From Clostridium cadaveris (GTDB lineage Bacteria; Bacillota; Clostridia; Clostridiales; Clostridiaceae): a DNA stretch of 64,000 nt. Location of the stretch: assembly GCF_039521325.1 (NCBI RefSeq), contig NZ_BAAACD010000016.1; one strand, 5' to 3'. The translations under genes were made by a program, and so were the position numbers. The stretch's first letter is position 1. Each line of letters opens with the position of its first letter. Below are positions 44,072 through 60,353 of this stretch, one piece after another. The notes beneath the pieces were generated by a model. It ran no database searches. It saw only the letters and a program-made list of their open reading frames with translations, and was not told where the DNA came from.

Positions 44072-44097
44072 CTCATTTATTTATGATACGGTTCTCC
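44072..44097. repeat. Left direct repeat (att core) of the island
   Basis: Identical 26-mer to 59869-59894. Confidence 0.75.
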
Positions 44098-44125
44098 GTA
44101 TCAGTAGTAAGTGAGGTTTTTTTTA

Positions 44126-44815: not shown

Positions 44816-44958
44816 AGATTCATCACTCCGATATAATTTAATATACTAACTATTATTGACATACTTTTAGTATTAATATCTATTATATTAAGTAATATAA
44901 ATTCTAATAAAAGCAAAAGGAGTATCTAATATAATACTCCTTTACTACTCTTTGCTTT

Positions 44959-45501
44959 CTATTTATATTCATTAATATGTTGAGTTACTCTATTATGATA
45001 ATCTATATCTTCTTCCATTGCATCAAATACAACTGCTCTATCTATACCAAATTCATATAACCAACTATAATCATATGTATCAGTCCATGAAACTATAAAA
45101 ACTTTATTAACTGTATTTCTTATCAAGTCATTTAGTATTTCTTTTCTTTGTTCATCTTTCTTTCTACATATTGAATCTACTGGATATAATATAGATACAT
45201 TATATCTTTCATTTCTCCATGACTTTTTATTTATTGTATCTATATACATTCTCAAGTTTCCTACTTTAATTCTTGTATTCAATTTTGCTGATTTGAGACT
45301 ATTTTGAAAAATACTATCAATATTATTTTTTCCATTAATCCTAAATAAAACTTTAACACCGTCTTGTACTGTTTTATTTAATGTTCGTAATACCTCCATA
45401 TGTTTTTCATATTGATGTGTTCCTGTTATAAGCATTACCTTTTCATCATCACTATTTAAAAATTCTATAATTTCTTTTTTTAAATTCTCTCTATTATTCA
45501 T
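44959..45501 (-). CDS. Hypothetical protein (island cargo)
   Basis: 180-aa ORF. No recognised motif. Confidence 0.5.
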   Translation of the reverse strand: MNNRENLKKEIIEFLNSDDEKVMLITGTHQYEKHMEVLRTLNKTVQDGVKVLFRINGKNNIDSIFQNSLKSAKLNTRIKVGNLRMYIDTINKKSWRNERYNVSILYPVDSICRKKDEQRKEILNDLIRNTVNKVFIVSWTDTYDYSWLYEFGIDRAVVFDAMEEDIDYHNRVTQHINEYK

Positions 45502-45567
45502 TTATACCCCACCCTTTATATTAAGATTTTAAAAATAGACTAGGAATTCTCCTAATCTATTTTTGTC

Positions 45568-45792
45568 TTATCCTCTAGGTGGGAAATTATCATTACCATA
45601 AGAATCTTTTTCTCTTATTCTTCCGTTTTTTCCATGAATAATAAGTTCTGATTGTTGATTCTTAGCAATTTCTCTAGCAATATTAATAGCTTCTTTTTGT
45701 GTTTTAGTAGTAGCAGTTGCTCTACTATTTCCAGCTCCTTTAACTTGCCAATTTCCTTTTCCATTAGGTGTCACATGTTGATTTTTTTTCAT
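45568..45792 (-). CDS. DUF2188 family protein
   Basis: …GKGNWQVKGAGNSRATATTKTQKEAINIAREIAKNQQSELIIHGKNGRIREKDSYGNDNFPPRG matches the DUF2188 pattern. Confidence 0.6.
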   Translation of the reverse strand: MKKNQHVTPNGKGNWQVKGAGNSRATATTKTQKEAINIAREIAKNQQSELIIHGKNGRIREKDSYGNDNFPPRG

Positions 45793-45862
45793 CTATATTT
45801 TCACTCCTTTTATATGTTATAAAAGGATGACTTGCTCAAACATCCATCTATGAGCTTTTGCT

Positions 45863-45991
45863 CTATTCTACTGGTATTTTAAAAGCCTTTAACCCGTAAG
45901 TTTTAGCATATATTCTTTGTCCATTTTTAGTTATCCAAGGGCGATATATATACTTCTTATCTTCCTTTTCTTTACTCTTATTATTATTCAT
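45863..45991 (-). CDS. Small basic hypothetical protein (42 aa)
   Basis: AGGAGGTG RBS 7 nt before the ATG. Translation MNNNKSKEKEDKKYIYRPWITKNGQRIYAKTYGLKAFKIPVE. The ORF track starts 47 codons upstream without an RBS. Confidence 0.4.
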   Translation of the reverse strand: MNNNKSKEKEDKKYIYRPWITKNGQRIYAKTYGLKAFKIPVE

Positions 45992-46198
45992 GCTAAAACA
46001 CCTCCTTCTTACAAGAATTTTACCTATTATATGTATAATAAGTAAGTTATCCTTGAAAAAAAGCGACATAACTGTTAAAATATTATTTGCAGTAAATTTA
46101 ACAGTGAGCAAGTTAAGTTCGCTATTTTTCAAGAAATGAAGCTATCTAAGCGCCAACTTAGATATCGCTTCATTTTTTATATTAAACGGATTTTCCGT

Positions 46199-46600
46199 CT
46201 AATCATCACTTTCATTTTCCTTTTCTCCTAGTAGAGTTGCTTTTGTTAGGTCAAAAATCATTACTTGTTCATTTTCATACCAATCACCTAATATACGGTA
46301 ACCTTCTTCTTTTATGTTCCAATTCATAAGTCTTGATAGTGTATAAATAAAATCTTTATTATTAATTCTTACATTTATACTTTTTATATTCTTAAAAAAT
46401 TGTATTGAACCTTCTTCATTTACATCACATATTTGTACTGCAATCATCTTTTTTTCTTCATTCATTAACAAAACTACATTTTTAGGTTTACCCATTTTTA
46501 TAACAGCGTTTTTTGAAAATGTCATTCCATTGTCTGTTATTGATACATATGGTAATCCAGAAGTAAGATTAACTTTTTTAAATCCTTCCAACATATTCAT
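46199..46600 (-). CDS. Hypothetical protein (island cargo)
   Basis: 133-aa ORF with an acidic C-terminus. No recognised motif. Confidence 0.45.
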   Translation of the reverse strand: MNMLEGFKKVNLTSGLPYVSITDNGMTFSKNAVIKMGKPKNVVLLMNEEKKMIAVQICDVNEEGSIQFFKNIKSINVRINNKDFIYTLSRLMNWNIKEEGYRILGDWYENEQVMIFDLTKATLLGEKENESDD

Positions 46601-46949
46601 CTCTCCTCATAATTATTATATTTTTTCAAATAACTTTTGTCAATATCCTATCATTTATTTTTTATTATTTTATCATTTTATATTCATAATCGCGCTTCAA
46701 TTGCATTTATGTTCTAACGATTATTTTTATTATGCATTATTTCAGTTTCATTTCAATCATTATTCAAACCACAAATTTAATCTCTACTCTAAATTATTTT
46801 CCAAGAAATTATCAATATTTTTATTTATTATATCATATTTAATACTTATTTTGTACCTTTTAAGTTGCATAATGTAATAAATGAATCAATATTAAATTTC
46901 ATTAATATCATATTCCGTTCATAATTTCAACTACTATTTTATCTTCTAA

Positions 46950-48647
46950 CTAAATAGTAATATCTAAGTTCAATACACTCATTCCAACATTTCTTAACAT
47001 AAAAGAAGAAGGAGCATCCTTTATAGATACTCCTTCTTCTTTACTTATATAGTCAACCAAGCTATCATTTATCTTCAGTTTTATTGAATCAATTTCTCTT
47101 GTTTCATTTATAGTTATTTCTGATATTATCATATGCAATAACTTCTTCTGTTTCTCTCTACTTGTGCTTTCTGTTAAGACTTTACTAAAATTCTCTAAGA
47201 TACTCTTTATGAATTCATAAGGTACTTCCTCACTTAAATCATCTGAAAGCGTTACAAGTAATGGTTCTTTTTGCTCTTGTAGCATTTTAGCCATCTTGTT
47301 TAGTTCTTCTTTTCTTTCCTTGAACTCCTCCTTGGATATTAAGTCCTCCTCATATCCCTCGAAAAGTTTACGTTTCTTTTTATCTATCTTCTCAAGCTCC
47401 TTATCTATTCTTTGTAGCTCCTTCTTAGCTGGATTTATCTTGTTATGTCTTTCTTCATTAACATTCTTCACTATTGACTTAACCATCTTTTCATTAGAAA
47501 GTAATTCTGATAACTTACTGAATACATACTCATTAGCTTTATCAACTCTTATTGTATTAGAATTACATACGTTTGTACCTTTATTCTTCCATGCTCCACA
47601 ACAGTAGTAAGCTATTCTCTTCTTAGTTCCATCAGCTAACTTATTAGTAGTTCTTGAAATTATCATTCCAGCTCCACACTTTGGACATCTTAGTATCCCA
47701 GTTAATGGATATTCACCATCGTATATCCTTGAAGGCTTACCTTTCTTACTTTCCATAATTGCTTGTACTTTATCCCATAGACTCTCCTCTATTATAGATT
47801 CATGTATTCCATCAGTTATTATTGGATTTGGATTAATATTTCTTCTTCTTTTTTCAGACCAATCTTGTCTCAAATTATATCTTATCTTTCCTATGTACAC
47901 CGGATTAGTTAATATATCTTTTATAGAGACTATTGAAAAATCATTCCCTTTCTTAGTCTTATGCCCTAATTTATTTATCTTATTAGCTATTGCTTTATAT
48001 CCTTTTCCACTAGCATATTCATTAAAAATTATTCTTACAGTTTCTGCTTCTTGTTTATTTATTACAAGTTTAGTGTCTTTTCTTTTCTTATGTTCAGTAC
48101 CTTCAATTGGTACAATATCATATCCTAATACTCGGTTTCCCCCCCAACGCCCTTCTCTTGCTCGTGCTAAGCACACCATTTTTACGTTCTGAGCTATTGT
48201 CCCTCTTTCTAATTCAGCAACTGCTCCCATCATGTGTAATCCAAACTTCCCCATAGGAGTCTCTGTTTCAAAGTTCTCTGAATATGACCTAAAAGCAATT
48301 CCTTTTCTATCTAATACATCTATTATTTCTAGTAAATTTAGCATATTCCTAGCTATTCTACTTATCTTCCAAGTTACTACTATGTCAAATTTTCCCTCCT
48401 CCGCATCTTGTAGCAACTCTTTTAATGCAGGTCTATTTTTAATATTCTTCCCACTAATTCCCCTATCTGAATAGCATTTATAAACTATCCAATCCATAGT
48501 CTTACACCATTCACTTAAAAGCCTTTCTTGGTCATCAATACTATAGCCATCTTACGCTTGTTCTTTTGAACTTACCCTACAGTATATCCCAATACGCTTT
48601 TTTCTTTTCTCCATCATTACATTATGTGCTAAAGTTTTAAAATCCAT
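46950..48647 (-). pseudogene. Ccr-like large serine recombinase (CcrB/CcrC-like) interrupted by an in-frame TAA at codon 32
   Basis: ATG at 48647 with an AAGGAG RBS. Reads MDFKTLAHNVMMEKRKKRIGIYCRVSSKEQA-TAA-DGYSIDDQERLLSEWCKTMDWIVYKCYSDRGISGK…, with the catalytic-Ser motif RVSS upstream of the stop. The downstream body has a resolvase domain, a recombinase domain and a zinc ribbon (CPKCGAGM…YYCCGAWKNKGTNVC) closely resembling staphylococcal CcrB. Confidence 0.75.
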
Positions 48648-48714
48648 AATCAAATCATCTCCTTATATTTAAGGACTTTAAGTTTAAAACAAAAAGTCCT
48701 TTTCTAGTAATATT

Positions 48715-49179
48715 CTATTCAAAGTGAATCTGTGACTCTCCATTTAATCCAAAATTTTTTCTATTGAAACTTGGATTTATCACAACCTCTAAGTTTTCCT
48801 CACTGTGATAATTTAATTCTATTGTATCATCTCCAAACATACCTACTTCTATAAACCAATCTCTAATATTTAATTCATCTACAAAGTCTATAAATTCATC
48901 TAATAATCTTAAATATTGTTCCTTGTTCATAATCACATTATTCTGCTGTGAGAACCACCACACATTAATTCTTGATTTCCTCTCTTCCAATATTATAAAC
49001 TCTGGTTTTATGTGTATATTTTTAAGTAAATTTACTATATTCTCTTTTTCAGTATCTGTTTTATATAATATACCTATTGCTAATCTTGTAAGTACACTTT
49101 CACCATTATACTGGTCTTCTCTAACCACATTCTTGTTAAATTTATCTAATATAATTTGTCTTTGCTCATTTTTATTCAT
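48715..49179 (-). CDS. Hypothetical protein (island cargo)
   Basis: Start at MNKNEQRQIILDKF with a TAGGAGGAAAATCAGT-ATG RBS. 154 aa. Confidence 0.5.
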   Translation of the reverse strand: MNKNEQRQIILDKFNKNVVREDQYNGESVLTRLAIGILYKTDTEKENIVNLLKNIHIKPEFIILEERKSRINVWWFSQQNNVIMNKEQYLRLLDEFIDFVDELNIRDWFIEVGMFGDDTIELNYHSEENLEVVINPSFNRKNFGLNGESQIHFE

Positions 49180-49277
49180 ACTGATTTTCCTCCTATTATT
49201 TATATAATATATATCTGAAAATTTTATCATTACACTTGATATCTAAAGTAATACCAAGTGCAATTTTATTATTTTAA

Positions 49278-49865
49278 TTAGAATTTAATTTCCTCATCTT
49301 CAATCTCTCCTAAATCTATACCTGTACCATACATATTTCTGACAACATTATTATTCTCATACTCTAATGAAGAATAGTCTTCCATTACATTCTCATACAC
49401 AATTTCATTTGCCTTATCATTTATGTAATCAATACTCATTAAGTTATTTCTCTCCATTTTTAAATACTTTTCTTCTTTTTTCTTATTATCATATGCAATA
49501 ATAAGCTCTCCATCTTCAAGATTATAGACATTAGTAACATTGATAAATGTACTCTCTCTTTGTAACTCTATAACTACTTCCTTACCTATTATCTCCTCAT
49601 AATTAAATTCTTCACACTCATCAATTATGTTGAAATTTTCTTTAATAGCTTTTATTAACTTATAAAATAAAAATGTTTTCCATGGTACTATAAGTAAGTA
49701 TTGTTTAACTAATGTTCCATCTTCAAGCTGAAATGTTATATATCCTTGATTAAACACTTTTTGCTTAATAGGCTTTCTACCATTGGGCTGATAACTTTTC
49801 ACTTTACATTTCTTGCATCCTAAAACTATATCTATGTATTTACCACCTTTTGTTATAGTTGCCAT
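49278..49865 (-). CDS. Hypothetical protein (island cargo)
   Basis: 195-aa ORF with an acidic C-terminus. Confidence 0.5.
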   Translation of the reverse strand: MATITKGGKYIDIVLGCKKCKVKSYQPNGRKPIKQKVFNQGYITFQLEDGTLVKQYLLIVPWKTFLFYKLIKAIKENFNIIDECEEFNYEEIIGKEVVIELQRESTFINVTNVYNLEDGELIIAYDNKKKEEKYLKMERNNLMSIDYINDKANEIVYENVMEDYSSLEYENNNVVRNMYGTGIDLGEIEDEEIKF

Positions 49866-49943
49866 TTTAATCGATCCCCTTTAACTTTTTATTTTATTAA
49901 CTTGATACCAAGCATATTCTTAATTGGTATCAAGTATATGTAC

Positions 49944-50042
49944 CTACTGTTTCTTTTCAGGAACTTTACCTTGTTTAATATAATCTAGTATCACTTGAGA
50001 TAAAATCTCCATTATCTCCTCTACCCTTTTAGACTTGTCCAT
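49944..50042 (-). CDS. Small hypothetical protein (32 aa)
   Basis: TAAGGAGGTAGAAAAT-ATG strong RBS. Translation MDKSKRVEEIMEILSQVILDYIKQGKVPEKKQ. Confidence 0.4.
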   Translation of the reverse strand: MDKSKRVEEIMEILSQVILDYIKQGKVPEKKQ

Positions 50043-50065
50043 ATTTTCTACCTCCTTAAAGATAT

Positions 50066-50698
50066 TTATCTTACTTTTATTATTGCAACAGTATAACCAT
50101 TACATTTAACATAGTTAACTTCTGAAAAAGTAATTGATACTGTATTACTGAAATCTAAGCTATACTTATCAGTTATCTCTAATACCAGTCCAGAAGAATA
50201 AATTACTCCTTTCCTACCACTACTCTTAAGTTTTAGTAAATTATCATTATTGGGTAATCTTTCTGCTATTGCTAAACTATCATCAGAAAATGATATTGAT
50301 ATAGTATTAGGATTATTTAGCTTATAAATTACCTCACTAGATAAAACTATTCTTTTGCAACTTTTTGAATTGATAACAGACATAACTCCTGCTTTAGTAC
50401 TTGTTTTAGATATTGTCTTACTTGTTGATGCTTTAAAGTTTCCTAAATCATATTCTTGCATTATGTCTTGATTATCATTTATATTTATTTCTTCACTTAA
50501 ATCTTCTCTTTCTTGTTCACTATATCTTTCTAGCTCCATTCTTTCTATTGCCTCTCTATTCTCTTGCATCATTTGCTCTATAGTTTTTCTAGGCTTTCTT
50601 TGTATATTTTTCTTTTCCTCTTCTGCTAAATTACTCCTTGCTTGAATATCCCTTGTTGATGGTACAGGTCTCCTTCTTATTACTGCCATTTTTATCAT
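50066..50698 (-). CDS. Hypothetical protein (island cargo)
   Basis: 210-aa ORF. Basic N-terminus MAVIRRRPVPSTRDIQARSN. Confidence 0.5.
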   Translation of the reverse strand: MIKMAVIRRRPVPSTRDIQARSNLAEEEKKNIQRKPRKTIEQMMQENREAIERMELERYSEQEREDLSEEININDNQDIMQEYDLGNFKASTSKTISKTSTKAGVMSVINSKSCKRIVLSSEVIYKLNNPNTISISFSDDSLAIAERLPNNDNLLKLKSSGRKGVIYSSGLVLEITDKYSLDFSNTVSITFSEVNYVKCNGYTVAIIKVR

Positions 50699-51242
50699 TC
50701 TCCTTTTTTATTTTTATAAATTTAAAATAACCCTTTGTAAACGTTTTCTTATTTTTGTGTGACTCTCCCCCTTTATAAATGAATAATTATAAATTTTTGC
50801 TCAATCTTTAATTACTATTAATTTAAGTTTTGACTATTATTAATTTAAACTTACTTTGTATTGATAATTATAGCAGCATTTTTTATATTTGCAACTCACC
50901 AAATGCATTGATACTGCTAACTTTAAGGCATATTTATTCTTTGATTTTCTTCTAAGAAACACCTTGTAATTAAGGATTTCCTAACACTTATCTATTAAAA
51001 TCCTTACACTCCAAAATTTCCTTGTTTAAAAGACTTTGCACCTTACAAGGCAGGTTTTCCTTATGCTCAACAAGATTTTTTTCAAAAACTCCCTTACATT
51101 TTGTGTATAAAAATTCATTTTTAATTCCATAAATGTATAAAAATTTATTTTTTTATTTTTCTATTATATTCTAAAAGCATACTACCTCCAAAAAAAATAG
51201 AGTCTTAACTTATTTTATAAGTAAATTAAGACTCTAATACTT

Positions 51243-51980
51243 CTAATATGCTGGTTCAGTTGGTTTAGCACTTCCTGGGTTAAATATATAGGTATTCCCA
51301 TTATCTACATAATCAAATGGAATAGCTGTTTTATTATATTCATTAAACATCTCATCCATTGTTAATGACTTATTTAAATGTGGGACATAGTATCTCTTTT
51401 CTAATGATTGCTGATTCTTCTTTTCTTCTGCAATTCTTTGAGCTTCTATTTCATTTATTGCTTCATAAGACTTCTTTACTAATTCATCAGCTTTTACCTT
51501 TTGCTCATCTGTTACATATTGTGAAGCTAGTATCTTATCATTTATATGACTTTTACATTCAGCATATTGTTTATTATTCAACATATTCTCAGCTTCATTT
51601 AATAATGCTGTTATATTTTCAACCTCTTTCAAGTAATTATTTATCTGACTTTTTAAGTTATCTATATCATCTTTTATTACATAGTTTATATAATCACTAT
51701 TTATTCCATCAATTATCTCTTTAGCTTCTGCTATTTTATTCTCATCAACTAGCTTTTTAGCTTTCTGATAACCATCAACTATTGAATATAATTTATTAGC
51801 TTCTTCATTCTCTTTATCTTCATCAAGAGCTAGTTGTAATGATGCTAATGCTTTATCATACTCTTTACTTTCTATTGAAGTCTTAGCTTGTTCAATTGAT
51901 TTCTTTACAACGCTATTTCCACATCCAACAAGTATTAATGTCAGCATTAGTAATAGCATTATTGATACTTTTCTTTTCAT
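51243..51980 (-). CDS. Hypothetical lipoprotein with a coiled-coil region
   Basis: MKRKVSIMLLLMLTLILVGCGNS, lipobox LVGC. Confidence 0.6.
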   Translation of the reverse strand: MKRKVSIMLLLMLTLILVGCGNSVVKKSIEQAKTSIESKEYDKALASLQLALDEDKENEEANKLYSIVDGYQKAKKLVDENKIAEAKEIIDGINSDYINYVIKDDIDNLKSQINNYLKEVENITALLNEAENMLNNKQYAECKSHINDKILASQYVTDEQKVKADELVKKSYEAINEIEAQRIAEEKKNQQSLEKRYYVPHLNKSLTMDEMFNEYNKTAIPFDYVDNGNTYIFNPGSAKPTEPAY

Positions 51981-51990
51981 ACCTTCTCTT

Positions 51991-52296
51991 CTACTCCTTA
52001 CTTCCCTTAAATTTATTATATAAATAGTACCCTATATAACCTATTACTCCTATCATTAAGGCTAGTCTTATTAAAAACCATAGTACAGAAATTACTCCTC
52101 CAACTAGTCCTCCTAGGAAATTAACTATGAAAGCTCCTACTATACAACATCCAACCCACATAGTTATCATAGCTCCAAATCCAAAATGTATAATATCGAA
52201 AATCTTATGTAGTAATATAAATATTCCTGTTCCTATTATTAAAGTAACTATTACTGCTATAATGCTTGTTAATCCACCTGCATCAAAAATATTCAT
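51991..52296 (-). CDS. Hypothetical small membrane protein
   Basis: 101 aa, 3 TM helices. GAGGAG RBS. Its ATG overlaps the stop of the upstream ORF (TAATG). Confidence 0.5.
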   Translation of the reverse strand: MNIFDAGGLTSIIAVIVTLIIGTGIFILLHKIFDIIHFGFGAMITMWVGCCIVGAFIVNFLGGLVGGVISVLWFLIRLALMIGVIGYIGYYLYNKFKGSKE

Positions 52297-52460
52297 TATT
52301 TCTTTTCTCCTCTCTCCCTCTTATTTATCCCATTTTTATTTATTACTTTTTGTAGCCAATTACATGTATATCCTAATTTCCTTGATATCTGTTTTAGGTT
52401 CTTTCCATCATAATACTTATTTAAATAATCAATTACATACTTATCTGAATATAATCTCAT
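52296..52460 (-). CDS. Small HTH-like protein (54 aa); possibly the C-terminal part of a longer ORF that runs to about 52658, separated by an in-frame TAG
   Basis: MRLYSDKYVIDYLNKYYDGKNLKQISRKLGYTCNWLQKVINKNGINKRERGEKK. No RBS of its own. The upstream ORF 52476-52658 is in the same frame with a TAG between them. Confidence 0.35.
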   Translation of the reverse strand: MRLYSDKYVIDYLNKYYDGKNLKQISRKLGYTCNWLQKVINKNGINKRERGEKK

Positions 52461-52887
52461 TGGAAATGTTATCTGCTAACCTTTATAATTCTCATATACT
52501 TTTAATGTTATCTCATGCCCTAAAACTTCAACCATATCCTTATAGATACCTCTGTAATTTTCACTTTTTCTACTCATATCCTCCTTATCCATCATCTCCT
52601 TTTCTATCCCATTCAATATTACCTCCTTTAAAAATTTTTCATAAGATTGAAAAAACAAGTAATTTTACAAGAGAAAATCACTTGTCTTTAATTAAACTTT
52701 GTAATTCATAACTACTTAACTATAATTACTCCTTTCTTAATATTTCTCTATATAAAAAGAGTTAATGCTCCTTTTATTAGAAACATTAACTCTCTTATCA
52801 TATTTATAATATATATTTAATCACATCATTAAAAACATTTGATTTAGCCTTTATTCGTAGCTTTTATTTTGATTGCTATTATTCATT

Positions 52888-52945
52888 CACACTTTCTGAA
52901 ATCTCTGCTTTCTGATGTGTTATCGTTGCTTTTTGATACATTCAT
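52888..52945. repeat. Imperfect direct repeat, copy A (extends to about 90 bp at roughly 85% identity)
   Basis: ttcacactttctgaaatctctgctttctgatgtgttatcgttgctttttga pairs with 53899-53956, ttcacattttctgaaatctctgttttctgatgtgctatcgttgctttttga. Confidence 0.6.
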
Positions 52946-52959
52946 ATTAATTGGTAGAT

Positions 52960-53520
52960 TAAATTTAACTTATATTTTTAATGATTTAATTTTATGTTAT
53001 GATTAGTTGCTATCTATGACTTATTAGTATCTATTCTTATTACACTATCATTTTATCTTTTCTTATCTCTATCTACCATTGATTATTATTTCATCCATTA
53101 ATTAGAGTTTCTTTATTCTATTATTATTACTTAGGATAGTTATTATTTCTTTATTAGTTCTTATCATTACTACATCTGATTAGTTATCTTAGTATTATTA
53201 CTCTAATTATCTTACTCAATTAACTTAATGAATTATCAATCTTTGATTATTATACTTCTTGATATTCTTATTATAGTTTTTACTTGATTACTTATCTTAG
53301 TAAATATTATTATTCTAATTACATCTATTAATTATTACTACAATTCTTAATTGATTATAATTTCTTTATCCTACTATCATATCTGATTAATTATATTATT
53401 TTTCTTATTCTGATTATAGTTAATTCTTATCAATCTATACTTCTTTATTACTTTATTCTTATTATCTTTTCTTCTATTCTATCTTTATTTTAATTGAAAT
53501 AGATTTTTAGTAATCTATTT
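52960..53520. repeat. G-depleted (about 6% G on the plus strand), about 80% AT, non-coding low-complexity tract with dispersed (c/t)tgatta and tcttat motifs
   Basis: Direct count of G per 60-nt line is 1-8. No ORF of 60 aa or more in any frame. A second similar tract lies at 53957-54215. Confidence 0.55.
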
Positions 53521-53530
53521 CAATTCTTAT
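53494..53530 (+). terminator. Perfect 11-bp hairpin followed by a T-rich run (plus-strand terminator-like)
   Basis: ttgaaatagat/ttttagta/atctatttcaa then ttcttattttt. Confidence 0.35.
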
Positions 53531-53546
53531 TTTTCTTTAGTCTCTT

Positions 53547-53560
53547 CCCCCCCTCCCCCC
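53547..53560. repeat. Homopolymeric tracts C7-T-C6
   Basis: cttccccccctccccccgtcgc. The only GC-rich spot in a roughly 1.4-kb AT-rich non-coding segment. Confidence 0.7.
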
Positions 53561-53898
53561 GTCGCTTTTTACAAGCTCCGTGTTCTCAGTGCCTCTATCC
53601 TAGTTCCAAGCTTCATTATTTATATGTTTTAGCTCTCTCATTTTTTTTATTTTTGAGTGGAATTGATTTATCCGCTACATATTTTATGTTCCCGATTCTC
53701 TTTGATTTCAAGTGGAATTAGGAACGGTAGGATTTCCTATGCTTTCAGCTTTCGGTATTCCTTTATGCCTTGTTATACTAGATTGTAAAGTTATCAATCT
53801 ACTCTCTACTATGAATTTCAGTACCTTTTCATCAGTTCATCTGAAAACCGTCGATTTAACCTCTATTTACAGCTTTTCAATTTTGGTGCTATTCTTAT

Positions 53899-53956
53899 TC
53901 ACATTTTCTGAAATCTCTGTTTTCTGATGTGCTATCGTTGCTTTTTGAGGTATTCC
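53899..53956. repeat. Imperfect direct repeat, copy B
   Basis: See copy A. The copies are about 1010 bp apart. Confidence 0.6.
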
Positions 53957-54216
53957 TCCAACTGAATGACTAGGATTCTCTATTACATTTCTAATCTTTC
54001 AAGTAAAAGTATCTATTATTATTTTCTTGTGCTTATAACTTCTTATTTCTCTTTTCTTTATTACTCACTTCTTAATTTCTTAACTTATAAGCATTAGTAT
54101 TTATTAACTACTAAAAAAATATATTCTTAACTTATTATAATAATATCGTTATAATCAAGTTATTATTTCTTAATTATAACGATACTATCTTTCTTAACTT
54201 ATTACTTCTTTATTTA

Positions 54217-54300
54217 CTACTTCTTATTTATTGCTTCTACAGAAGTTGCTACAACTGTTAATATTGTTCCAACTACTTTGATTACTGCTATAACATCCAT
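54217..54300 (-). CDS. Candidate small hydrophobic peptide (27 aa), translationally coupled to the upstream gene
   Basis: GGAGGAG RBS overlaps the stop of 54313-54660. MDVIAVIKVVGTILTVVATSVEAINKK is a hydrophobic helix with a charged tail. Confidence 0.4.
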   Translation of the reverse strand: MDVIAVIKVVGTILTVVATSVEAINKK

Positions 54301-54312
54301 TAATTTCTCCTC

Positions 54313-54660
54313 CTATCTTTTATAAGTGTATATATATGAATAGCTATCTAGCACGGGTATTAACTTCACTACATATTTACCTTCTTCAAGCTCTATATAT
54401 ACTAAAGTTTCTTTATCATAGCTTGTACCATTGCAAAGCTCTACAACTTTATTAAATTCTTTTATCAATGTAAATTGAATATAGTTGAGCTCTTCTTGTA
54501 ACCTCTTTAGGTCTATTTCCTTTTTATTATTTAATTCTATTATTAGCTCTCTTGGATTCCATTGATTAGCAAGTCTTCCATCATAAAAATCGAAACGCAT
54601 TACTCCTAGAAGTTCTTTACTGTCATAATTAAATATCTTTTCCTTACTTAATGTATTCAT
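54313..54660 (-). CDS. Hypothetical protein (island cargo)
   Basis: 115-aa ORF. Confidence 0.5.
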   Translation of the reverse strand: MNTLSKEKIFNYDSKELLGVMRFDFYDGRLANQWNPRELIIELNNKKEIDLKRLQEELNYIQFTLIKEFNKVVELCNGTSYDKETLVYIELEEGKYVVKLIPVLDSYSYIYTYKR

Positions 54661-54677
54661 TATTTACCACTCCTTAA

Positions 54678-54986
54678 TTAGTATTCTGATGGTAGAAGCA
54701 TAGTTGAATATTCTACACTATCAATTACATAGATTTTAATACCATAATCTATCTGAATATCTTCTAGCTCTATTTCATATGTGCATGAGTATTCAGGAAC
54801 TTCTTGACTTTGATTTATTACAACCTTATTTCCTTCTTTTCTTATCTTGAAAACTTGTAAGTAATCTAGTTCAATATTTTCTTCATCATTCAATTTATCA
54901 ATCATACTCCACATTATAATTTGTAGTATTATGTCTACTTCCTCATTTATACCTCTAGTTACATACCTATTATTTTTCTTGAACAT
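54678..54986 (-). CDS. DUF960 family protein
   Basis: MFKKNNRYVTRGINEEVDIILQIIMWSMIDKL… This family is typically found in Firmicute ICEs and in SCC ccr-region backbones. Confidence 0.55.
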   Translation of the reverse strand: MFKKNNRYVTRGINEEVDIILQIIMWSMIDKLNDEENIELDYLQVFKIRKEGNKVVINQSQEVPEYSCTYEIELEDIQIDYGIKIYVIDSVEYSTMLLPSEY

Positions 54987-55129
54987 ATTTCTCTATCTCC
55001 TTTGCATTACAAGTTTTTATAGTCATCTTCCCATTTCTAATTACACCTACATATAAAATTCTTTTCATTACCCTTTTCCTCCTAAAAATAATAAAAGTCT
55101 TAATCACTACATCAATAGTAATTAAGACT

Positions 55130-55441
55130 TTATACCTTACTTATTTCTTGTTTTATCATTGTTATAAATTCCTCTGAAAATACTTGATTCTTTATTGATT
55201 CTTTTATTAGCTCTAATAGCTCTAGTTCAGTTACATCAAGACTTCTTGGAATATAAGTTTCATCACCTCTTCTAGTTGCTTTATATACACAGAACCTTAC
55301 TTCATTTCTTTTTAATTCCTTAATATATATCTTTTCTATTGTATATGTGTATTCATCATCTCCAACTTTTCCTTGATTCATTATCTTACAATACTTAGTT
55401 TCTTTGATTATACTCTCTTCTTTTACATTCTTCTTACTCAC
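55130..55441 (-). CDS. Hypothetical protein (island cargo)
   Basis: 103-aa ORF. Confidence 0.5.
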   Translation of the reverse strand: MSKKNVKEESIIKETKYCKIMNQGKVGDDEYTYTIEKIYIKELKRNEVRFCVYKATRRGDETYIPRSLDVTELELLELIKESIKNQVFSEEFITMIKQEISKV

Positions 55442-55458
55442 ATTAAATTAACCTCCTT

Positions 55459-55797
55459 TTATTCTAGTAGGAACTTAGAAAGTTCTTCTGTTGTTATTAC
55501 TACAATTGAAAAATCGCTTGAAATCAAAAATAGTGAAGAAACCCAATTAATTCCCTCACTACATTCAATGATATCAGTATATTCTGGCACTAAATCTTGT
55601 AATTTATCTTGCTTCAATATTTCGATATCTACGATATTTTCTGCTATAAGTACATATCCACCTAAGTCATTATCTACATGTCTATTTGCTCCATAATTAT
55701 CATCTAGTATTTCTATAGTTTCACATATACTATTAATAACTTCTGTTGGATATTTTTTTAATTGTTTTAACTGTTCCTTTGAATAAACCTTCTTCAT
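55459..55797 (-). CDS. Hypothetical protein (island cargo)
   Basis: 112-aa acidic ORF. Confidence 0.5.
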   Translation of the reverse strand: MKKVYSKEQLKQLKKYPTEVINSICETIEILDDNYGANRHVDNDLGGYVLIAENIVDIEILKQDKLQDLVPEYTDIIECSEGINWVSSLFLISSDFSIVVITTEELSKFLLE

Positions 55798-55893
55798 TAT
55801 ATATTTCTCCCTTCTTAATACAAAAAGGTTCTTACATGCTTTTAATACACATAAGAACCTTTATTATTTTTATAATATATATTTATATTATGC

Positions 55894-57657
55894 TTAATAC
55901 CTTATTGTAAACTCTGAATTATTAAACATATCTCTTTCTAATTCCTCAACAGTCATTTCTCCTGACTTTATTTTTTCAGCTCCAAGCAATAAATTTACCA
56001 CATTAACAGCCGCACCATTAACTCCAGTACTCATACTTAATCTTCTTAATTGTTCTTCAAACTTACCCTTAAACGAACCAGATATAAATACAAAATAATA
56101 TTTTTGAACCTCTTCTGAAAAGTTTTCCCACCATTTATTAGGATTTATTTGCTCGTCTCTGTTAGAATTTTCTCTTACATACCTTTCCATCTCATCTGCT
56201 TGACTTATAGGCAAACTATATCCTTCCGAATATGCCTTAGTATCTACAATAATCCCAAAATTATCCTCTAAAGTCGTAGAATATACTATACCATCAGGTT
56301 TTCTACTTCCCCCGAGATGTCTACCCTTAAATCCATATTCATTAACTAATAATTCCAACACTTTCATTTCAAATAGTCTATTTTGCTTACTATCAAATGC
56401 TAAGTCTATTAATGATAGGTAATCATGAGAAATATTAGTTATTTGCTCTCTTAGCTCATCTTTCAACAAACTAATTTTGCTCTTTATCTCTTCTGCATCT
56501 CCTAACTTAGGTATAATAAAATCATTAATGGTATCATACATCTTATAACCTTTAGTCTCACTCTTAATATTTATCCCTGTATTAATTAATCCATTAATAT
56601 CGTCTTTAATAGTACTAATAGATTCATTAATATTAGCTAATTTTAACTTATCTTTTATATTCTCTAAAGTTAATACTTTACTAGTTTCAATTAATATTTT
56701 TAAAATATACGACCTTCTAGTTCTTATATAATTTTTGTCTATCCCTTTTGTAGCAAACATTTCCCAAAAAACATTTTTCGAAACTCTAGCTACTTTATTT
56801 ATTCCTAATAATCTTCTAACTGCTTTTAGACCCTTATCTGTAATCATATAAGCATGTCCTATCGTTTCACTATACATTTCTCCACCAAAATTTACAGTAA
56901 CTAACTTAGGTCTTTGTACCAATAACCCTAGTTTCACTAGCCACCCTGAAATCATCCTAGCATATTTGTCTGATGACCCATCCCAATCAGTTTTAATTTT
57001 ATTTTTTTCCTTTGGGTCATCAGTAGTAGCTAATGTCATAATTAGTACATTTAATGGTAAGCTTGTAAATCCTGCTTCTCCAGTAAAACCCAATTTCTTA
57101 CCTATCTCATATTTTGTTAAGTGCTCTCCATTAGAAAGTAATGTTAAAACTCTTGCTACTGGTGGATATGATAACATCGCTTCTTCTAAAATTATGTTTT
57201 CTTCTTGACTACCATCTTCACTTTGTACATATCTTTTCCCTAGCTCTGATATCTCAAATGTATCTGTATCATAGTTATATTTAATAAACCCTAATGCATG
57301 TGCCCATCTAACAAAATTATCTGATGACCAATCATCTATAAACTCCTTTCTTTGACCCTTTACAGTTGCTTGTACTATTGCATTACATCGTGCAGAACTT
57401 CTTGGCGTAAAGGATGTGCCAACTAACTTGTAATACTCTATCTTTAAAGGATTTACGCTTAATGCATTTATTAACTCCTTTTGACCATCTCTTTCTTCTA
57501 CTAATTTCTTTATTCTCTTATCTCTTAACTCGATATGTATCTTTGATGTGTTATCAAAAATGGAGACAACTTTTTTTAAACTTTCAAAATTACTTGGATT
57601 TTGAACCCAGCCAAAAGTTCTAATAGTTTTATTATTTACATCTATTATCTTAATCAT
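55894..57657 (-). CDS. Type IIS restriction endonuclease, FokI family
   Basis: 587 aa, colinear with FokI. Shared blocks: IRTFGWVQNP, WSSD.F.RWAHALGFI, SYPP…ILTLL, KYARMI.GWL.KLGL, RTRR..IL.ILI, KGLINTGI. Cleavage domain EMKV.E…YG..G.HLGGSRKPDG.IY…G.IVDTKAYS.GY.LPI.QADEM.RYV.EN…INPN.WW. Confidence 0.9.
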   Translation of the reverse strand: MIKIIDVNNKTIRTFGWVQNPSNFESLKKVVSIFDNTSKIHIELRDKRIKKLVEERDGQKELINALSVNPLKIEYYKLVGTSFTPRSSARCNAIVQATVKGQRKEFIDDWSSDNFVRWAHALGFIKYNYDTDTFEISELGKRYVQSEDGSQEENIILEEAMLSYPPVARVLTLLSNGEHLTKYEIGKKLGFTGEAGFTSLPLNVLIMTLATTDDPKEKNKIKTDWDGSSDKYARMISGWLVKLGLLVQRPKLVTVNFGGEMYSETIGHAYMITDKGLKAVRRLLGINKVARVSKNVFWEMFATKGIDKNYIRTRRSYILKILIETSKVLTLENIKDKLKLANINESISTIKDDINGLINTGINIKSETKGYKMYDTINDFIIPKLGDAEEIKSKISLLKDELREQITNISHDYLSLIDLAFDSKQNRLFEMKVLELLVNEYGFKGRHLGGSRKPDGIVYSTTLEDNFGIIVDTKAYSEGYSLPISQADEMERYVRENSNRDEQINPNKWWENFSEEVQKYYFVFISGSFKGKFEEQLRRLSMSTGVNGAAVNVVNLLLGAEKIKSGEMTVEELERDMFNNSEFTIRY

Positions 57658-57737
57658 ATATATTCCTCCATAAATTCATATATATATATTTTATCATATA
57701 TATAAAAAAAAAGAAGAATATACTATTTTGTATATTC

Positions 57738-59735
57738 TTAGTAATTAGTTATCAATACCTCTTCACTTTTTCCTTTTTTTGTATTATAACTTGAATTAGA
57801 GTAATCATGATTAAGATTATTAATATTATATTTTTTACTCCACTCTTTTAATATATTATTGCTCTTCCCTTTATGCTCTAATACATTTGATAAAGCAAAC
57901 TTAATCCCTTTCTCATTAGCTTTATCCAGATATTCTAACAACATAACTTCTTCATTTTCAGTCCAATTTTTAAAACCTCTATTTCCGTCATTATATGAGC
58001 CTGTAGTAATCAAATATGGAGGGTCACAATAAATAAAGCTATTTTTATCTAAGTTATCAAATGATACATCAATAAAATCATTGCATGTAAAACTTATATT
58101 CTTACTATGCATACTCTTTAAAAATTCAATTAAGTTCCCTTTAAGAACCGATGAAAATTGACTTCTATTTCTTCCAAATGGATTATTGTATTCAAAATTT
58201 TTATTAAATCTAAATTGGTAATTAAAGGAGTAACATACTAAAGTATATAAATCTAATGGCATTTTTGTTTTATTATAATACTCTCTAAATGCCTTAAATC
58301 CATCTTCATTTTCCTTTGTTAATTTAAACTCTTTTATTCTATTCTCAATATAATTTAATATATATTCATCAGTATTATTTTTAAATTCATTAAATAATTC
58401 TATCACAAAATTATTATAATCGTTGCATATTATATTTTTTGCCTCAACATTAATTCCTACATTGCATCCTCCTGCAAATAAGTCTACAAATGTTTCTATT
58501 TTTTTAGGAAACATAGGTATTATCTGATTTAGTAACTTATACTTACCACCAATGTAGTTTAAAGGACTTTTTATATATTTTTTCTTTTGTTTTCCTTTAT
58601 ATTTGTTTACGTTACATTTGCATATTTCATTTTTTTTACTTTTATCTTCTTGTACACTATCACTTTGCTTTCTGATATAAAAAATCAACTCATATAATTC
58701 TATAATTTTTTGCTCATGTTTACTCTTATATTTTCTATATGGTATCTTATACAATTTAAATGTCTCTTCAACCCCGTACTTTTTCAATATTTGTTCTATT
58801 TCATCAGAAGACATTAAGCCATCTGTACTATAACTAACGATTATATGTTTAAAATTAGAATCTTTGATTAGTGACTCAAAAGAATCTTTTACTTGCTTTT
58901 TGTTACAATATTTAGACTTTTGATTTTCATAATTTCTTAAACCAGTTACTCCATATAGCTCTGGATAATCATATTTAGCTATAGTCTCCAAAACATGATA
59001 GTTAGGTACATATTGTCTTGAGTTGTACGGTGGGTCTAAATATAAAATATCCCCTTTAATTTTTTTTATTAATTCATTAGCATCTTCATTAAAGCATCTA
59101 TTCTCTCTCTCATTGTCTATTACCTCTAATTTTTTTAACTCAATCTTATTTAAAGCTCTTTTATCCCATTTCTTTAAATATGCTCCATAAGTCCCTGATA
59201 TATTTGATACATATGGTATTCCTTCAAGTAAACAAGCTAATAAATATGCATATTCATTAAAATCTATAATATTATCTCTTTTCCACTCATCTAGCTTAAC
59301 TCTTATAAAATCTATCCTATTAGCATTTTCTTTGGTTATATACATTCTATTAGATTTATTGCTAGGTGCGTAATGATTACTTGCAAAATATACTCTATCA
59401 TTAAAATTAATATCGCTAATATCAAATGTTTCTAAATAATTTATAGGGTCATCTATGCCAATACTTTTTAATTTAATAAATTCAGGAATTTTATTATTCT
59501 CTACTGTTGCTTTCTGTAATATATAAGAAAAATACATCAAATCGTTAGAGTATACTTGATAATATTCCTTGAAATATCTAGCTACAGTTCCTGTTCCTGA
59601 AAAAATATCGCAAAAAGTGTTAGCTTTATCACTAACATTCTCGTCTATTACTTCTTTTATCTTATCTAACAATAAGACTTTACTTCCTATATATCTCATA
59701 TCTTCTATCTCCTCATTTCTTACATCCCTAAACAT
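57738..59735 (-). CDS. Type IIS modification methyltransferase, M.FokI-like (two fused N6-adenine MTase domains)
   Basis: 665 aa with two DPPY motifs (LYLDPPYNSRQY and IYCDPPYLITTGSYNDGNRGFK). The C-terminus …KKGKSEEVLITNY is near-identical in pattern to M.FokI. Confidence 0.9.
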   Translation of the reverse strand: MFRDVRNEEIEDMRYIGSKVLLLDKIKEVIDENVSDKANTFCDIFSGTGTVARYFKEYYQVYSNDLMYFSYILQKATVENNKIPEFIKLKSIGIDDPINYLETFDISDINFNDRVYFASNHYAPSNKSNRMYITKENANRIDFIRVKLDEWKRDNIIDFNEYAYLLACLLEGIPYVSNISGTYGAYLKKWDKRALNKIELKKLEVIDNERENRCFNEDANELIKKIKGDILYLDPPYNSRQYVPNYHVLETIAKYDYPELYGVTGLRNYENQKSKYCNKKQVKDSFESLIKDSNFKHIIVSYSTDGLMSSDEIEQILKKYGVEETFKLYKIPYRKYKSKHEQKIIELYELIFYIRKQSDSVQEDKSKKNEICKCNVNKYKGKQKKKYIKSPLNYIGGKYKLLNQIIPMFPKKIETFVDLFAGGCNVGINVEAKNIICNDYNNFVIELFNEFKNNTDEYILNYIENRIKEFKLTKENEDGFKAFREYYNKTKMPLDLYTLVCYSFNYQFRFNKNFEYNNPFGRNRSQFSSVLKGNLIEFLKSMHSKNISFTCNDFIDVSFDNLDKNSFIYCDPPYLITTGSYNDGNRGFKNWTENEEVMLLEYLDKANEKGIKFALSNVLEHKGKSNNILKEWSKKYNINNLNHDYSNSSYNTKKGKSEEVLITNY

Positions 59736-59868
59736 CCATTTAATATTACTATATTTATATTAAAAATTCAATAGATTTAATAAACTATTACTTTTTAATA
59801 TAAAAAAGGCTACTATCAAAATGCTTTCATAGTAACCACTAAATTCATTATCCAATTTTAGTAAAAAC

Positions 59869-59894
59869 CTCATTTATTTATGATACGGTTCTCC
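59869..59894. repeat. Right direct repeat (att core) overlapping the rlmH 3' end
   Basis: Identical 26-mer to 44072-44097. On the minus strand it encodes …GEPYHK*. Confidence 0.75.
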
Positions 59895-60353
59895 CTTAAT
59901 TATCCTAAATCCTCTATATATCTGTTCTAGAAGCATAACTCTGAATAGTTGGTGTGGAAATGTCATTTTTGAGAAACATAATTTATAGCTTGCTCTATTT
60001 AAAACATCTTGTGAAAGTCCAAGGCTTCCTCCTATAATAAATACTAGATTTGAGTTACCTTGTATGCCACAGTTATCTATGAAATATGAAAATTCCTCTG
60101 AGGAAAGTGTCTTTCCTTTTAGATCCATAGCTATTACATAGGCATTATCTTTGATTTTTGATAGGATTTGGGCCCCTTCCTTTTCTTTAATTTGAAGTTC
60201 TTCCTTTTCTGAAGCATTATCTGGTGTTTTTTCATCTGCCACTTCTATAACTTCAAGTTTGCAGTATTTGCTTAATCTTTTTGAGTACTCATCTATAGCA
60301 TCTCTTAAGAATTTTTCTTTTATTTTTCCTACTGTTATAAGGGTTATATTCAT
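59874..60353 (-). CDS. rlmH: 23S rRNA (pseudouridine1915-N3)-methyltransferase RlmH (the orfX equivalent)
   Basis: 159-aa SPOUT MTase. …IIGGSLGLSQDVLNRASYKLCFSKMTFPHQLFRVMLLEQIYRGFRIIKGEPYHK. Confidence 0.9.
   Translation of the reverse strand: MNITLITVGKIKEKFLRDAIDEYSKRLSKYCKLEVIEVADEKTPDNASEKEELQIKEKEGAQILSKIKDNAYVIAMDLKGKTLSSEEFSYFIDNCGIQGNSNLVFIIGGSLGLSQDVLNRASYKLCFSKMTFPHQLFRVMLLEQIYRGFRIIKGEPYHK

What the first reader, a model, noticed from the sequence alone, without database searches (positions are those of the whole stretch)
55894..59735. Complete FokI-type IIS restriction-modification pair as island cargo
Both proteins are colinear with FokI and M.FokI along their whole length. This includes the FokI recognition-domain blocks, the C-terminal non-specific cleavage domain (…HLGGSRKPDG…DTKAYS…QADEM…), and the two-domain DPPY/DPPY methyltransferase ending …EVLITNY. 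Each is predicted to be functional, with an intact ORF and its own RBS. The recognition site is probably GGATG-like. An RM module would stabilise the cassette through post-segregational killing and would restrict incoming DNA. FokI-family systems are scarce, and finding one on an rlmH cassette in a clostridial genome is notable.
Basis: partly seen in the sequence, partly recalled or inferred. Interest (0 to 1): 0.6.

Follow-up and report, generated by a model that had tools for sequence, protein, structure and literature searches.

The report
FokI-like restriction-modification pair on rlmH cassette

Summary
ORF 55894-57657(-) encodes a 587-aa protein that aligns end to end with FokI (E=1.4e-184, 50.6% identity, all four FokI Pfam domains). 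The catalytic residues and the dimer-interface motif are conserved. ORF 57738-59735(-) most likely starts at 59699 (653 aa). It is 60% identical to M.FokI and colinear with it, and has two DPPY domains. Both genes are under strong purifying selection (dN/dS 0.06-0.10).

The island reading also holds. Strains of the same species have an empty site, which defines a 15,971-bp insertion (43898-59868) directly after rlmH. The insertion is bounded by a 29-nt repeat of the rlmH 3' end that contains the SCC/ECC core TATCATAA. It carries a DUF960 gene and a CcrB/CcrC-like serine recombinase. In this strain a single TAA codon inactivates that recombinase.

M+R fills exactly the variable slot next to the rlmH-proximal att site. 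Another strain carries AbiU plus a different Type II R-M pair in that slot.

The scarcity claim fails. The same cassette with 86-90% identical R sits at rlmH in C. perfringens and other clostridia, and more than 1,500 homologue clusters exist. GGATG specificity is probable but inferred. Site-avoidance counts told us nothing. Verdict: a new member of known kinds, of modest interest.

The parts
59874..60353 (-). rlmH (23S rRNA methyltransferase, SPOUT family). Its last codons form the chromosomal attachment site.
   Evidence: Pfam SPOUT_MTase, E=1.8e-62, full length. The same flanking genes are present in the empty-site strains.
59866..59894 (-). rlmH-proximal att repeat (attL-like): GGAGAACCGTATCATAAATAAATGAGGTT, covering the rlmH stop codon.
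   Evidence: Direct repeat family D16, 28/29 identical to 44069-44097. The 20-nt core occurs exactly twice in the window, against 0.01 expected. It contains the TATCATAA motif described for SCCmec and ECC att sites (PMC6222049) and the GAACCGTATCA repeat reported at rlmH insertions in clostridia (PMC12232799).
57738..59699 (-). M.FokI-like fused double N6-adenine methyltransferase, 653 aa. The maximal ORF extends to 59735.
   Evidence: 60% identity (390/655), colinear with M.FokI P0180. Two D12-class domains. DPPY at residues 234 and 571 of the 665-aa ORF. PADLOC MTase_II PDLC03287, E=5.9e-288, full length. GAGGAG RBS before 59699. dN/dS 0.08-0.10.
55894..57657 (-). FokI-like Type IIS restriction endonuclease, 587 aa: D1-D2-D3 recognition domain plus a C-terminal PD-(D/E)XK cleavage domain.
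   Evidence: PDB 2fok E=1.4e-184. 50.6% identity over 575 aa. PD at 454-455 and DTK at 472-474 correspond to FokI D450/D467/K469. QADEM is conserved. Four FokI Pfam domains. PADLOC REase_II, E=6.9e-193. GGAGG RBS. dN/dS 0.055-0.080.
55824..55862 (-). Intrinsic-terminator-like hairpin (16-bp stem followed by a T run), 32 nt after the R stop codon. It marks the end of the cargo module.
   Evidence: Terminator scan. The backbone shared with differently loaded cassettes starts at 55885.
54313..55797 (-). Conserved cassette backbone ORFs: 112 aa, 103 aa, DUF960 (54678-54986) and 115 aa.
   Evidence: DUF960 Pfam E=2.3e-23. DUF960 is one of the short conserved ccr-complex proteins of SCC (PMC10581047). 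These ORFs are syntenic in L005, L010, L012 and L018.
46950..48647 (-). CcrB/CcrC-like large serine recombinase gene, 565 codons, interrupted by one TAA at codon 32 (48552-48554), just after the catalytic-serine motif YCRVSS.
   Evidence: Translation of the upstream frame. 68% identical to the intact 565-aa recombinase of the C. perfringens cassette, which has GAG at that codon. Resolvase, Recombinase and Zn_ribbon_recom Pfam domains. Best NCBIfam matches are CcrB at 406 bits and CcrC at 346 bits, both below the equivalog cut-off of 900.
44069..44097 (-). Distal att repeat (attR-like), a copy of the rlmH 3' end.
43898..44068 (-). 171-nt tail between the distal repeat and the point where the empty-site sequence resumes. 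It contains a degenerate att-like core (ACCGTATCA, 44006-44014) and is followed by a short third repeat, AAATGAGAT (43889-43897). Probably the remnant of an earlier cassette.
   Evidence: Megablast break points against empty sites L016 and L017 are 59869 and 43898, with an 8-nt overlap. Sequence inspection.
43898..59868 (-). The whole insertion relative to empty-site strains: 15,971 bp, 26.8% G+C against 30.3% and 31.9% in the flanks.

Best explanation
The two genes form a functional Type IIS restriction-modification system of the FokI family.

The methyltransferase is a fusion of two D12-class N6-adenine methylases. As in M.FokI, the N-terminal half is expected to modify one strand of an asymmetric site and the C-terminal half the other. 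The site is most probably GGATG/CATCC.

The endonuclease is expected to bind unmethylated sites as a monomer through its D1-D3 recognition domain. It would then release its sequestered C-terminal PD-(D/E)XK domain, dimerise through the conserved interface helices with a second molecule, and cut both strands a fixed distance downstream. For FokI that distance is 9/13.

The pair is the att-proximal cargo module of a ~16-kb SCC/ECC-like cassette. A CcrB/CcrC-like large serine recombinase integrated this cassette into the last codons of rlmH. Cassettes of this family in Clostridium keep a common backbone and exchange defence modules in the slot next to rlmH.

In this strain a nonsense codon has inactivated the recombinase. 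The cassette is therefore probably fixed unless a recombinase is supplied in trans.

Shown here: homology, intactness, selection, the insertion boundaries, cargo-slot variability and the recombinase lesion.
Inferred: enzymatic activity, GGATG specificity, cut distance, the defence and addiction roles, and the integration mechanism.
For: R-M identity:
- Full-length match to the FokI structures, E=1.4e-184. Identity is 50-55% and evenly spread over D1, D2, D3 and the cleavage domain.
- All four FokI Pfam domains are present.
- Catalytic D/D/K and the QADEM-R dimer motif are conserved.
- Asn13 of FokI contacts the adenine of GGATG, and N13Y abolishes binding (PMC2673415). It is conserved in the WVQNP block.
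- M is 60% identical to M.FokI over its full length. M.BtsCI, which modifies the same GGATG site, is 62% identical to M.FokI and 48% identical to M.StsI (PMC2831314).
- dN/dS is 0.055-0.098 for R and M, the same range as rlmH.
- Each gene has an RBS, and a terminator follows R.
- The identical R protein occurs in four further sequencing runs, and the source table also lists it from NCBI.

Island:
- Empty sites in four loci of the same species give exact break points.
- The 29-nt repeat of the rlmH end is present.
- A Ccr-like recombinase and DUF960 are on the element.
- G+C is lower than in the flanks.
- The same rlmH-M-R-backbone-recombinase arrangement occurs in other Clostridium genomes, including C. 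perfringens CP198679.1.
- In L012 and L018 the slot holds an AbiU-like gene plus another Type II R-M pair on the same backbone.
Against: - There is no biochemical or methylome evidence.
- 50% identity in the recognition domain does not guarantee an unchanged specificity.
- GGATG/CATCC is only mildly under-represented (O/E 0.81, rank 47 of 512 pentamer pairs), and equally so inside and outside the island. That gives no independent sign of selection by this enzyme.
- The recombinase falls below NCBIfam's Ccr equivalog cut-offs (406 bits against 900). It is Ccr-like rather than a typed Ccr.
- The 171-nt tail shows that the right end is not a simple single-event junction.
Confidence: 0.76

Rival explanations
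1. It is a FokI-family Type IIS R-M system, but with a recognition sequence different from GGATG. The recognition domain and the methylase target-recognition regions would have co-diverged.
For: Identity to FokI in the recognition domain is only 52%, and M is 60% identical to M.FokI. No GGATG-specific avoidance signal is seen.
Against: The M.FokI, M.BtsCI and M.StsI relatives share GGATG at 48-62% identity (PMC2831314). Asn13, which contacts the adenine, and the surrounding block are conserved (PMC2673415). No domain is rearranged or lost.
Confidence: 0.15
2. The genes are intact but the system is not an active restriction barrier. Examples would be a silenced R gene, or a methylase kept for epigenetic or other roles with R on its way to decay.
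For: The cassette is already decaying, because the recombinase has a nonsense codon. An AT-rich hairpin with a T run lies between M and R (visible) and could limit read-through into R.
Against: R has the lowest dN/dS of the three genes compared (0.055-0.080). It has no stop codon or frameshift, keeps its catalytic residues and has its own strong RBS. The identical protein is found in several independent samples.
Confidence: 0.08
3. The R-M pair is ordinary chromosomal DNA of the species next to rlmH, not mobile cargo. The repeat would be coincidental.
For: None beyond the fact that the recombinase is non-functional here.
Against: Four loci of the same species join rlmH directly to the HTH gene found at window 42828-43514. 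Other strains carry different cassettes at the same place. The repeat is expected 0.01 times by chance. The same cassette occurs at rlmH in other species.
Confidence: 0.01

Closest known systems
FokI / M.FokI Type IIS R-M system of Planomicrobium (Flavobacterium) okeanokoites, GGATG(9/13)
   Same: Same gene order, M then R on the same strand, by my recollection of the fokIM-fokIR operon. Lengths are similar: 587 aa against the FokI crystal chains of 576-579 aa, and 653 against 647 aa. The domain architecture is the same: D1-D2-D3 plus the cleavage domain, and two fused D12 methylase domains with DPPY motifs. Catalytic D450/D467/K469, the dimer-interface motif and Asn13 are conserved. Both methylases end in EVLITNY.
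   Different: Only 50.6% (R) and 60% (M) identical. The host is a Clostridium rather than a member of the Bacillales. It sits on an rlmH-integrated cassette. Specificity and cut distance have not been measured.
Staphylococcal cassette chromosome (SCC/SCCmec) and the Enterococcus cassette chromosome (ECC)
   Same: Insertion into the 3' end of rlmH. Flanking direct repeats copy the rlmH end and contain the TATCATAA core (PMC6222049). It has a CcrB/CcrC-like large serine recombinase and a DUF960 backbone gene (PMC10581047). Related cassettes carry a D5_N primase-helicase. There are tandem or remnant arrays with extra att copies. R-M and other defence genes appear as cargo (PMC6222049, PMC11470126).
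   Different: There is a single recombinase, scoring below the NCBIfam Ccr cut-offs, and in this strain it is inactivated. The host is Clostridium. No resistance gene is present. The cargo is a FokI-type Type IIS system. The precedents reported in SCC/ECC are type I hsd systems and SfaNI.
rlmH-3' insertions flanked by GAACCGTATCA in Clostridioides difficile, Paeniclostridium sordellii, C. perfringens, Turicibacter and Romboutsia (Tet P determinant; PMC12232799)
   Same: The identical 11-nt repeat core lies inside the repeat found here, the insertion point at the rlmH 3' end is the same, and the hosts are clostridial.
   Different: Those insertions are ~4.8 kb and carry tetA(P)/tetB(P). Their authors interpreted them as arising by homologous recombination. 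Here a 16-kb cassette carries its own Ccr-like recombinase gene and defence cargo.
SfaNI R-M system of Enterococcus faecalis NEB215, associated with ccrAB_Ent (cited in PMC6222049)
   Same: [quoted passage not shown] By my recollection SfaNI is a Type IIS enzyme, which I did not check here.
   Different: A different enzyme family and, by my recollection, a different specificity (GCATC). I did not compare the sequences.

Membership tests
FokI-family Type IIS restriction endonuclease | N-terminal recognition domain made of three winged-helix subdomains D1, D2 and D3 | tested here: met
   Pfam FokI_D1 1.4e-45, FokI_dom_2 9.8e-49 and FokI_D3 2.7e-18, all above their cut-offs. The alignment to 2fok is colinear over residues 11-385, with 52% identity.
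FokI-family Type IIS restriction endonuclease | C-terminal non-specific cleavage domain with the PD...D-X-K active site (FokI D450, D467, K469) | tested here: met
   Pfam FokI_cleav_dom 1.6e-75. PD at 454-455 and DTK at 472-474 align with FokI 449-450 and 467-469.
FokI-family Type IIS restriction endonuclease | Dimerisation interface of the cleavage domain. By my recollection of Bitinaite et al. 1998 these are FokI D483 and R487. That paper was not held. | tested here: met
   QADEMERY here aligns with QADEMQRY in FokI. Both the Asp and the Arg are conserved.
FokI-family Type IIS restriction endonuclease | Recognition of GGATG and cleavage 9/13 nt downstream | not testable with these tools
   Only indirect evidence is available. 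Asn13, which contacts the adenine (PMC2673415), is conserved. The methylase is as close to M.FokI as M.BtsCI is (PMC2831314). Site counts were uninformative.
M.FokI-type fused double N6-adenine methyltransferase | Two complete D12-class (alpha-group) MTase domains in one chain, each with a DPPY catalytic motif | tested here: met
   Pfam MethyltransfD12 with 2 stretches, E=2.5e-84. DPPY at 234 and 571. The C-terminal half matches T4 Dam and E. coli Dam structures. Full-length 60% identity to M.FokI.
M.FokI-type fused double N6-adenine methyltransferase | Each half methylates one strand of the asymmetric site | not testable with these tools
   Requires a methylome or an in vitro assay.
SCC/ECC-like rlmH cassette | Integration at the 3' end of rlmH, with an empty site in related strains | tested here: met
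   Empty sites L016, L017, L020 and L021. Break points at 59869 and 43898.
SCC/ECC-like rlmH cassette | Flanking direct repeats that copy the rlmH end and contain the TATCATAA core | tested here: met
   The 29-nt repeat is 28/29 identical. The 20-nt core is found twice against 0.01 expected. Motif as described in PMC6222049.
SCC/ECC-like rlmH cassette | Encodes Ccr-family large serine recombinase(s) | tested here: inconclusive
   The best NCBIfam hits are CcrB (406 bits, 1-520 of 542) and CcrC (346 bits), far ahead of XisF (146). Both are below the equivalog cut-off of 900. The gene carries a nonsense codon here.
SCC/ECC-like rlmH cassette | Conserved ccr-complex accessory genes (DUF960, helicase/primase) | tested here: met
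   DUF960 is present. A D5_N primase-helicase is present in the related C. perfringens cassette L010, but I found none in the window's cassette.
SCC/ECC-like rlmH cassette | Recombinase-dependent excision and circularisation | not testable with these tools
   Needs PCR for the attB and circle junctions. It is expected to be negative in this strain because of the TAA codon.

The most novel reading that the evidence does not exclude
Clostridium species share a family of SCC-equivalent cassettes that has not been formally described. These cassettes are integrated at rlmH by a single CcrB/CcrC-like recombinase. Their att-proximal slot works as an exchangeable defence-gene bay: FokI-type R-M in this strain, and AbiU plus another Type II R-M in a sister strain. 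The M+R module, together with an rlmH 3' fragment, also turns up at a non-rlmH locus in C. perfringens. That would suggest module-level mobility independent of the whole cassette.
Probability: 0.35. Interest if true: 0.45.

Novelty: new member of a known kind. Interest (0 to 1): 0.25.

Why it matters
In practical terms, a FokI-type barrier would probably lower the transformability of this C. cadaveris lineage with unmethylated DNA containing GGATG. The same would apply to the C. perfringens and other Clostridium strains that carry the same cassette. Pre-methylating DNA with M.FokI, or removing the sites, would be the obvious counter-measure.

The enzyme is also a natural FokI cleavage-domain variant at 50% identity, which could interest nuclease engineers.

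More broadly, the locus adds a clear clostridial example, with empty sites and alternative loads, to the picture of rlmH cassettes as carriers of exchangeable defence modules. That picture is already established for staphylococci and enterococci. None of this overturns current understanding.

Tried and rejected
1. O/E was 0.81 in the window, 0.80 in the island and 0.80 outside, ranking 47 of 512 pentamer pairs. There is no contrast between island and chromosome, so the test neither supports nor refutes the specificity.
2. Rfam scan of the island at E<=0.1. The only hit was a sub-threshold sau-19 match that overlaps the terminator hairpin after R. I treated it as chance.
3. PHROGs scan of ten backbone ORFs gave nothing useful. 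Pfam found no families for most backbone ORFs.
4. tblastn of R against phage records found no match. Against plasmids it found only 13 records below 40% identity, in lactic acid bacteria and staphylococci. This lineage is therefore not plasmid- or phage-borne in those collections.
5. I looked for the published list of FokI base-contact residues so I could score them one by one. Only Asn13 could be sourced (PMC2673415). The dimerisation paper PMC27935 is not held.
6. I considered whether a weak 40-nt similarity at 40663-40702 (70%, family D1) marks a further cassette boundary. I rejected this because the empty-site strains are colinear with the window from 43898 down to about 34830.
7. I did not run structure prediction. 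A 50%-identical solved structure makes it unnecessary.
Full report
**Observation**

They are 55894-57657 (587 aa) and 57738-59735 (665 aa as the maximal ORF). All quoted motifs are present:
- In R: HLGGSRKPDG at 447, DTKAYS at 472 and QADEM at 486.
- In M: DPPY at 234 and 571, and EVLITNY at the C-terminus.

**The endonuclease**

- phmmer against PDB sequences returns only the two FokI entries. 2fok matches with E=1.4e-184, aligning residues 11-583 to 4-577 in one stretch.
- BLASTP against the FokI sequence read from that alignment gives 50.6% identity over 575 residues with 7 gaps.
- Identity is even across the protein: D1 51%, D2 55%, D3 52%, cleavage domain 50%.
- Pfam finds FokI_D1, FokI_dom_2, FokI_D3 and FokI_cleav_dom, all far above their gathering scores.
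- PADLOC assigns a Type II REase model with E=6.9e-193.
- The PD...DTK active site aligns with FokI D450/D467/K469. The QADEM-x-R helix aligns with the FokI dimer interface.
- Asn13 contacts the adenine of GGATG, and its N13Y mutant cannot bind (PMC2673415). It lies in the conserved WVQNP block.

**The methyltransferase**

- The database search returned M.FokI itself (UniRef MTF1_PLAOK, P0180). BLASTP gives 390/655 identical (60%), colinear from residue 1 to the shared C-terminal EVLITNY.
- There are two D12-class domains. The C-terminal half matches the T4 Dam and E. coli Dam structures.
- The likely start is the ATG at 59699, not 59735. A GAGGAG precedes it, the M.FokI alignment starts there, and gene callers elsewhere give 653 aa.
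- For scale, M.BtsCI is 62% identical to M.FokI and 48% identical to M.StsI, and all three modify GGATG (PMC2831314).

**Integrity and expression**

- Neither gene has stop codons or frameshifts.
- Against the orthologous pairs in L005 and L010, dN/dS is 0.055-0.080 for R and 0.082-0.098 for M. For rlmH it is 0.081-0.087.
- R has a GGAGG 8 nt before its ATG. It is preceded by an AT-rich hairpin plus a T run after the M stop codon.
- A 16-bp-stem terminator follows R.

**Island**

rlmH lies at 59874-60353.

*Repeats.*
- A 29-nt direct repeat, 28/29 identical, links the rlmH 3' end (59866-59894) to 44069-44097.
- Its 20-nt core occurs exactly twice in the window, against 0.01 expected.
- It contains TATCATAA, the central motif of SCCmec and ECC att sites (PMC6222049).
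- It also contains GAACCGTATCA, the repeat reported at rlmH-3' insertions in several clostridia (PMC12232799).

*Empty sites and break points.*
- I looked up the HTH protein encoded at 42828-43514. This recovered four loci with the same flanking genes in which rlmH abuts that gene directly (L016, L017, L020, L021).
- Megablast puts the break points at 59869 and 43898, with an 8-nt overlap.
- The insertion is therefore 15,971 bp, with 26.8% G+C against 30.3% and 31.9% in the flanks.
- It consists of the 15.8-kb cassette plus a 171-nt tail (43898-44068). The tail holds a degenerate att-like core and is followed by a short third repeat, so it is probably a remnant of an earlier cassette.

*Recombinase and backbone.*
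- The cassette carries DUF960, one of the short ccr-complex proteins of SCC (PMC10581047).
- It also carries a 565-codon large serine recombinase gene (46950-48647). Its best NCBIfam matches are CcrB (406 bits) and CcrC (346 bits), well ahead of XisF (146) but below the equivalog cut-offs.
- Codon 32 of this gene is TAA (48552-48554), directly after the catalytic YCRVSS motif. The 68%-identical intact recombinase of the C. perfringens cassette has GAG at that position.

**Comparative context**

- NCBI and UniRef hold the exact R protein, annotated as a FokI C-terminal domain-containing protein of Clostridium cadaveris.
- Relatives at 83-92% identity occur in C. thermobutyricum, C. perfringens and a MULTISPECIES Clostridium entry.
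- In L005, L007, L008 and L010 the arrangement is rlmH, M, R, 112-aa ORF, DUF960, Mor, an intact recombinase, and in L010 also a D5_N primase-helicase. These loci are syntenic with the window at 70-94% DNA identity.
- L012 and L018 come from strains of the same species, and L012 has an identical RlmH. They share the backbone from window 55885 downward, which is 9 nt past the R stop codon. Between att and that point they carry an AbiU-like AIPR protein, a D12 MTase and a different Type II REase.
- L019 has yet another cassette.
- Several loci have extra att copies, indicating tandem arrays.
- So M+R fills a defined, exchangeable, att-proximal defence slot.

**Abundance**

- 1,564 clusters at 90% identity scored E<=1e-5 among the candidates examined.
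- In the exhaustive search of 50%-identity representatives, 350 clusters reach E<=1e-3 and 150 reach E<=1e-30, out of 1.84 billion.
- The family is narrow in sequence diversity but is not rare in clostridia.
- It is nearly absent from the plasmid collection (13 records below 40% identity) and absent from the phage collection.

**Specificity**

GGATG is the best inference, for the reasons above, but it has not been tested. The site-frequency test had no discriminating power: O/E was 0.81, 0.80 and 0.80 for the window, the island and the rest.

**Verdict**

The finding is a new member of two well-known kinds: a FokI-family R-M system and an SCC/ECC-like rlmH cassette. It is already annotated as such at the protein level.

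The points that add something are:
- the precise empty-site proof;
- the exchangeable defence slot;
- the recombinase nonsense mutation;
- the spread of the same cassette across Clostridium species.

Interest is modest.

Noticed in passing
window 46950-48647 (stop codon at 48552-48554): The cassette's CcrB/CcrC-like serine recombinase gene is full length, but a single in-frame TAA at codon 32 interrupts it right after the catalytic serine motif. The C. perfringens orthologue has GAG there. This is either a recent inactivation or a sequencing error.
   Followed up: yes
window 52700-54300: About 1.6 kb of the cassette backbone has no ORF longer than 71 aa. It includes a 59-nt direct repeat (52885-52943 and 53897-53955, 90% identical) and many short AT-rich repeats. 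Part of the region and the adjacent ORF (53704-54650) is 93.8% identical to L005, which is more conserved than the R-M genes at 82%. No Rfam family matches. It could be a replication origin, a regulatory region or an unknown RNA.
   Followed up: partly
L009 7519-12552 and L011 (C. perfringens); L006 7749 onward: The same M+R module appears in non-rlmH contexts. In L009 and L011 it is preceded only by a ~260-nt 3' fragment of rlmH (an 84-aa SPOUT fragment). It lies downstream of a PTS operon, and no recombinase is called in the 10 kb after it. In L006 the cassette is identical to L005 from the att core onward, but the upstream flank is different (cdaA...ackA...VanZ). This could reflect secondary sites, att-mediated rearrangements or module-level transfer.
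   Followed up: partly
window 43770-43919 (+): A small 49-aa hydrophobic ORF with a strong AGGAGGTG RBS converges on rlmH. In the empty-site strains it would run into the att core. A 165-nt homologue (82% identical) lies just upstream of the att core in L006 (7499-7661). It could be a small toxin-like peptide or a conserved att-flanking element.
   Followed up: no
window 43898-44068: A 171-nt tail lies between the distal att repeat and the resumption of the empty-site sequence. It has an internal att-like ACCGTATCA (44006-44014). It looks like the scar of an earlier cassette, as in composite SCC arrays.
   Followed up: partly
L012 10617-14880, L018 and L019 (same species, other strains): The rlmH-downstream locus of C. 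cadaveris is a hot spot with at least three alternative loads: FokI-type R-M; AbiU-like AIPR plus a D12 MTase and a DUF6996/6997 REase; and FtsK/DUF87 plus a DpnII/MboI-like protein. Further att copies and cassettes lie behind them, carrying a radical SAM protein and a WYL regulator.
   Followed up: partly
window 44126-46600: The ORFs at the recombinase-distal end of the cassette have no informative family match in Pfam (229, 180 and 133 aa searched), PADLOC (229, 180 and 133 aa) or PHROGs (133 aa only). The 74-aa ORF was not searched. The 180-aa protein has only a weak PADLOC PDC-S01 hit (E=6e-4). This may be further uncharacterised cargo.
   Followed up: no
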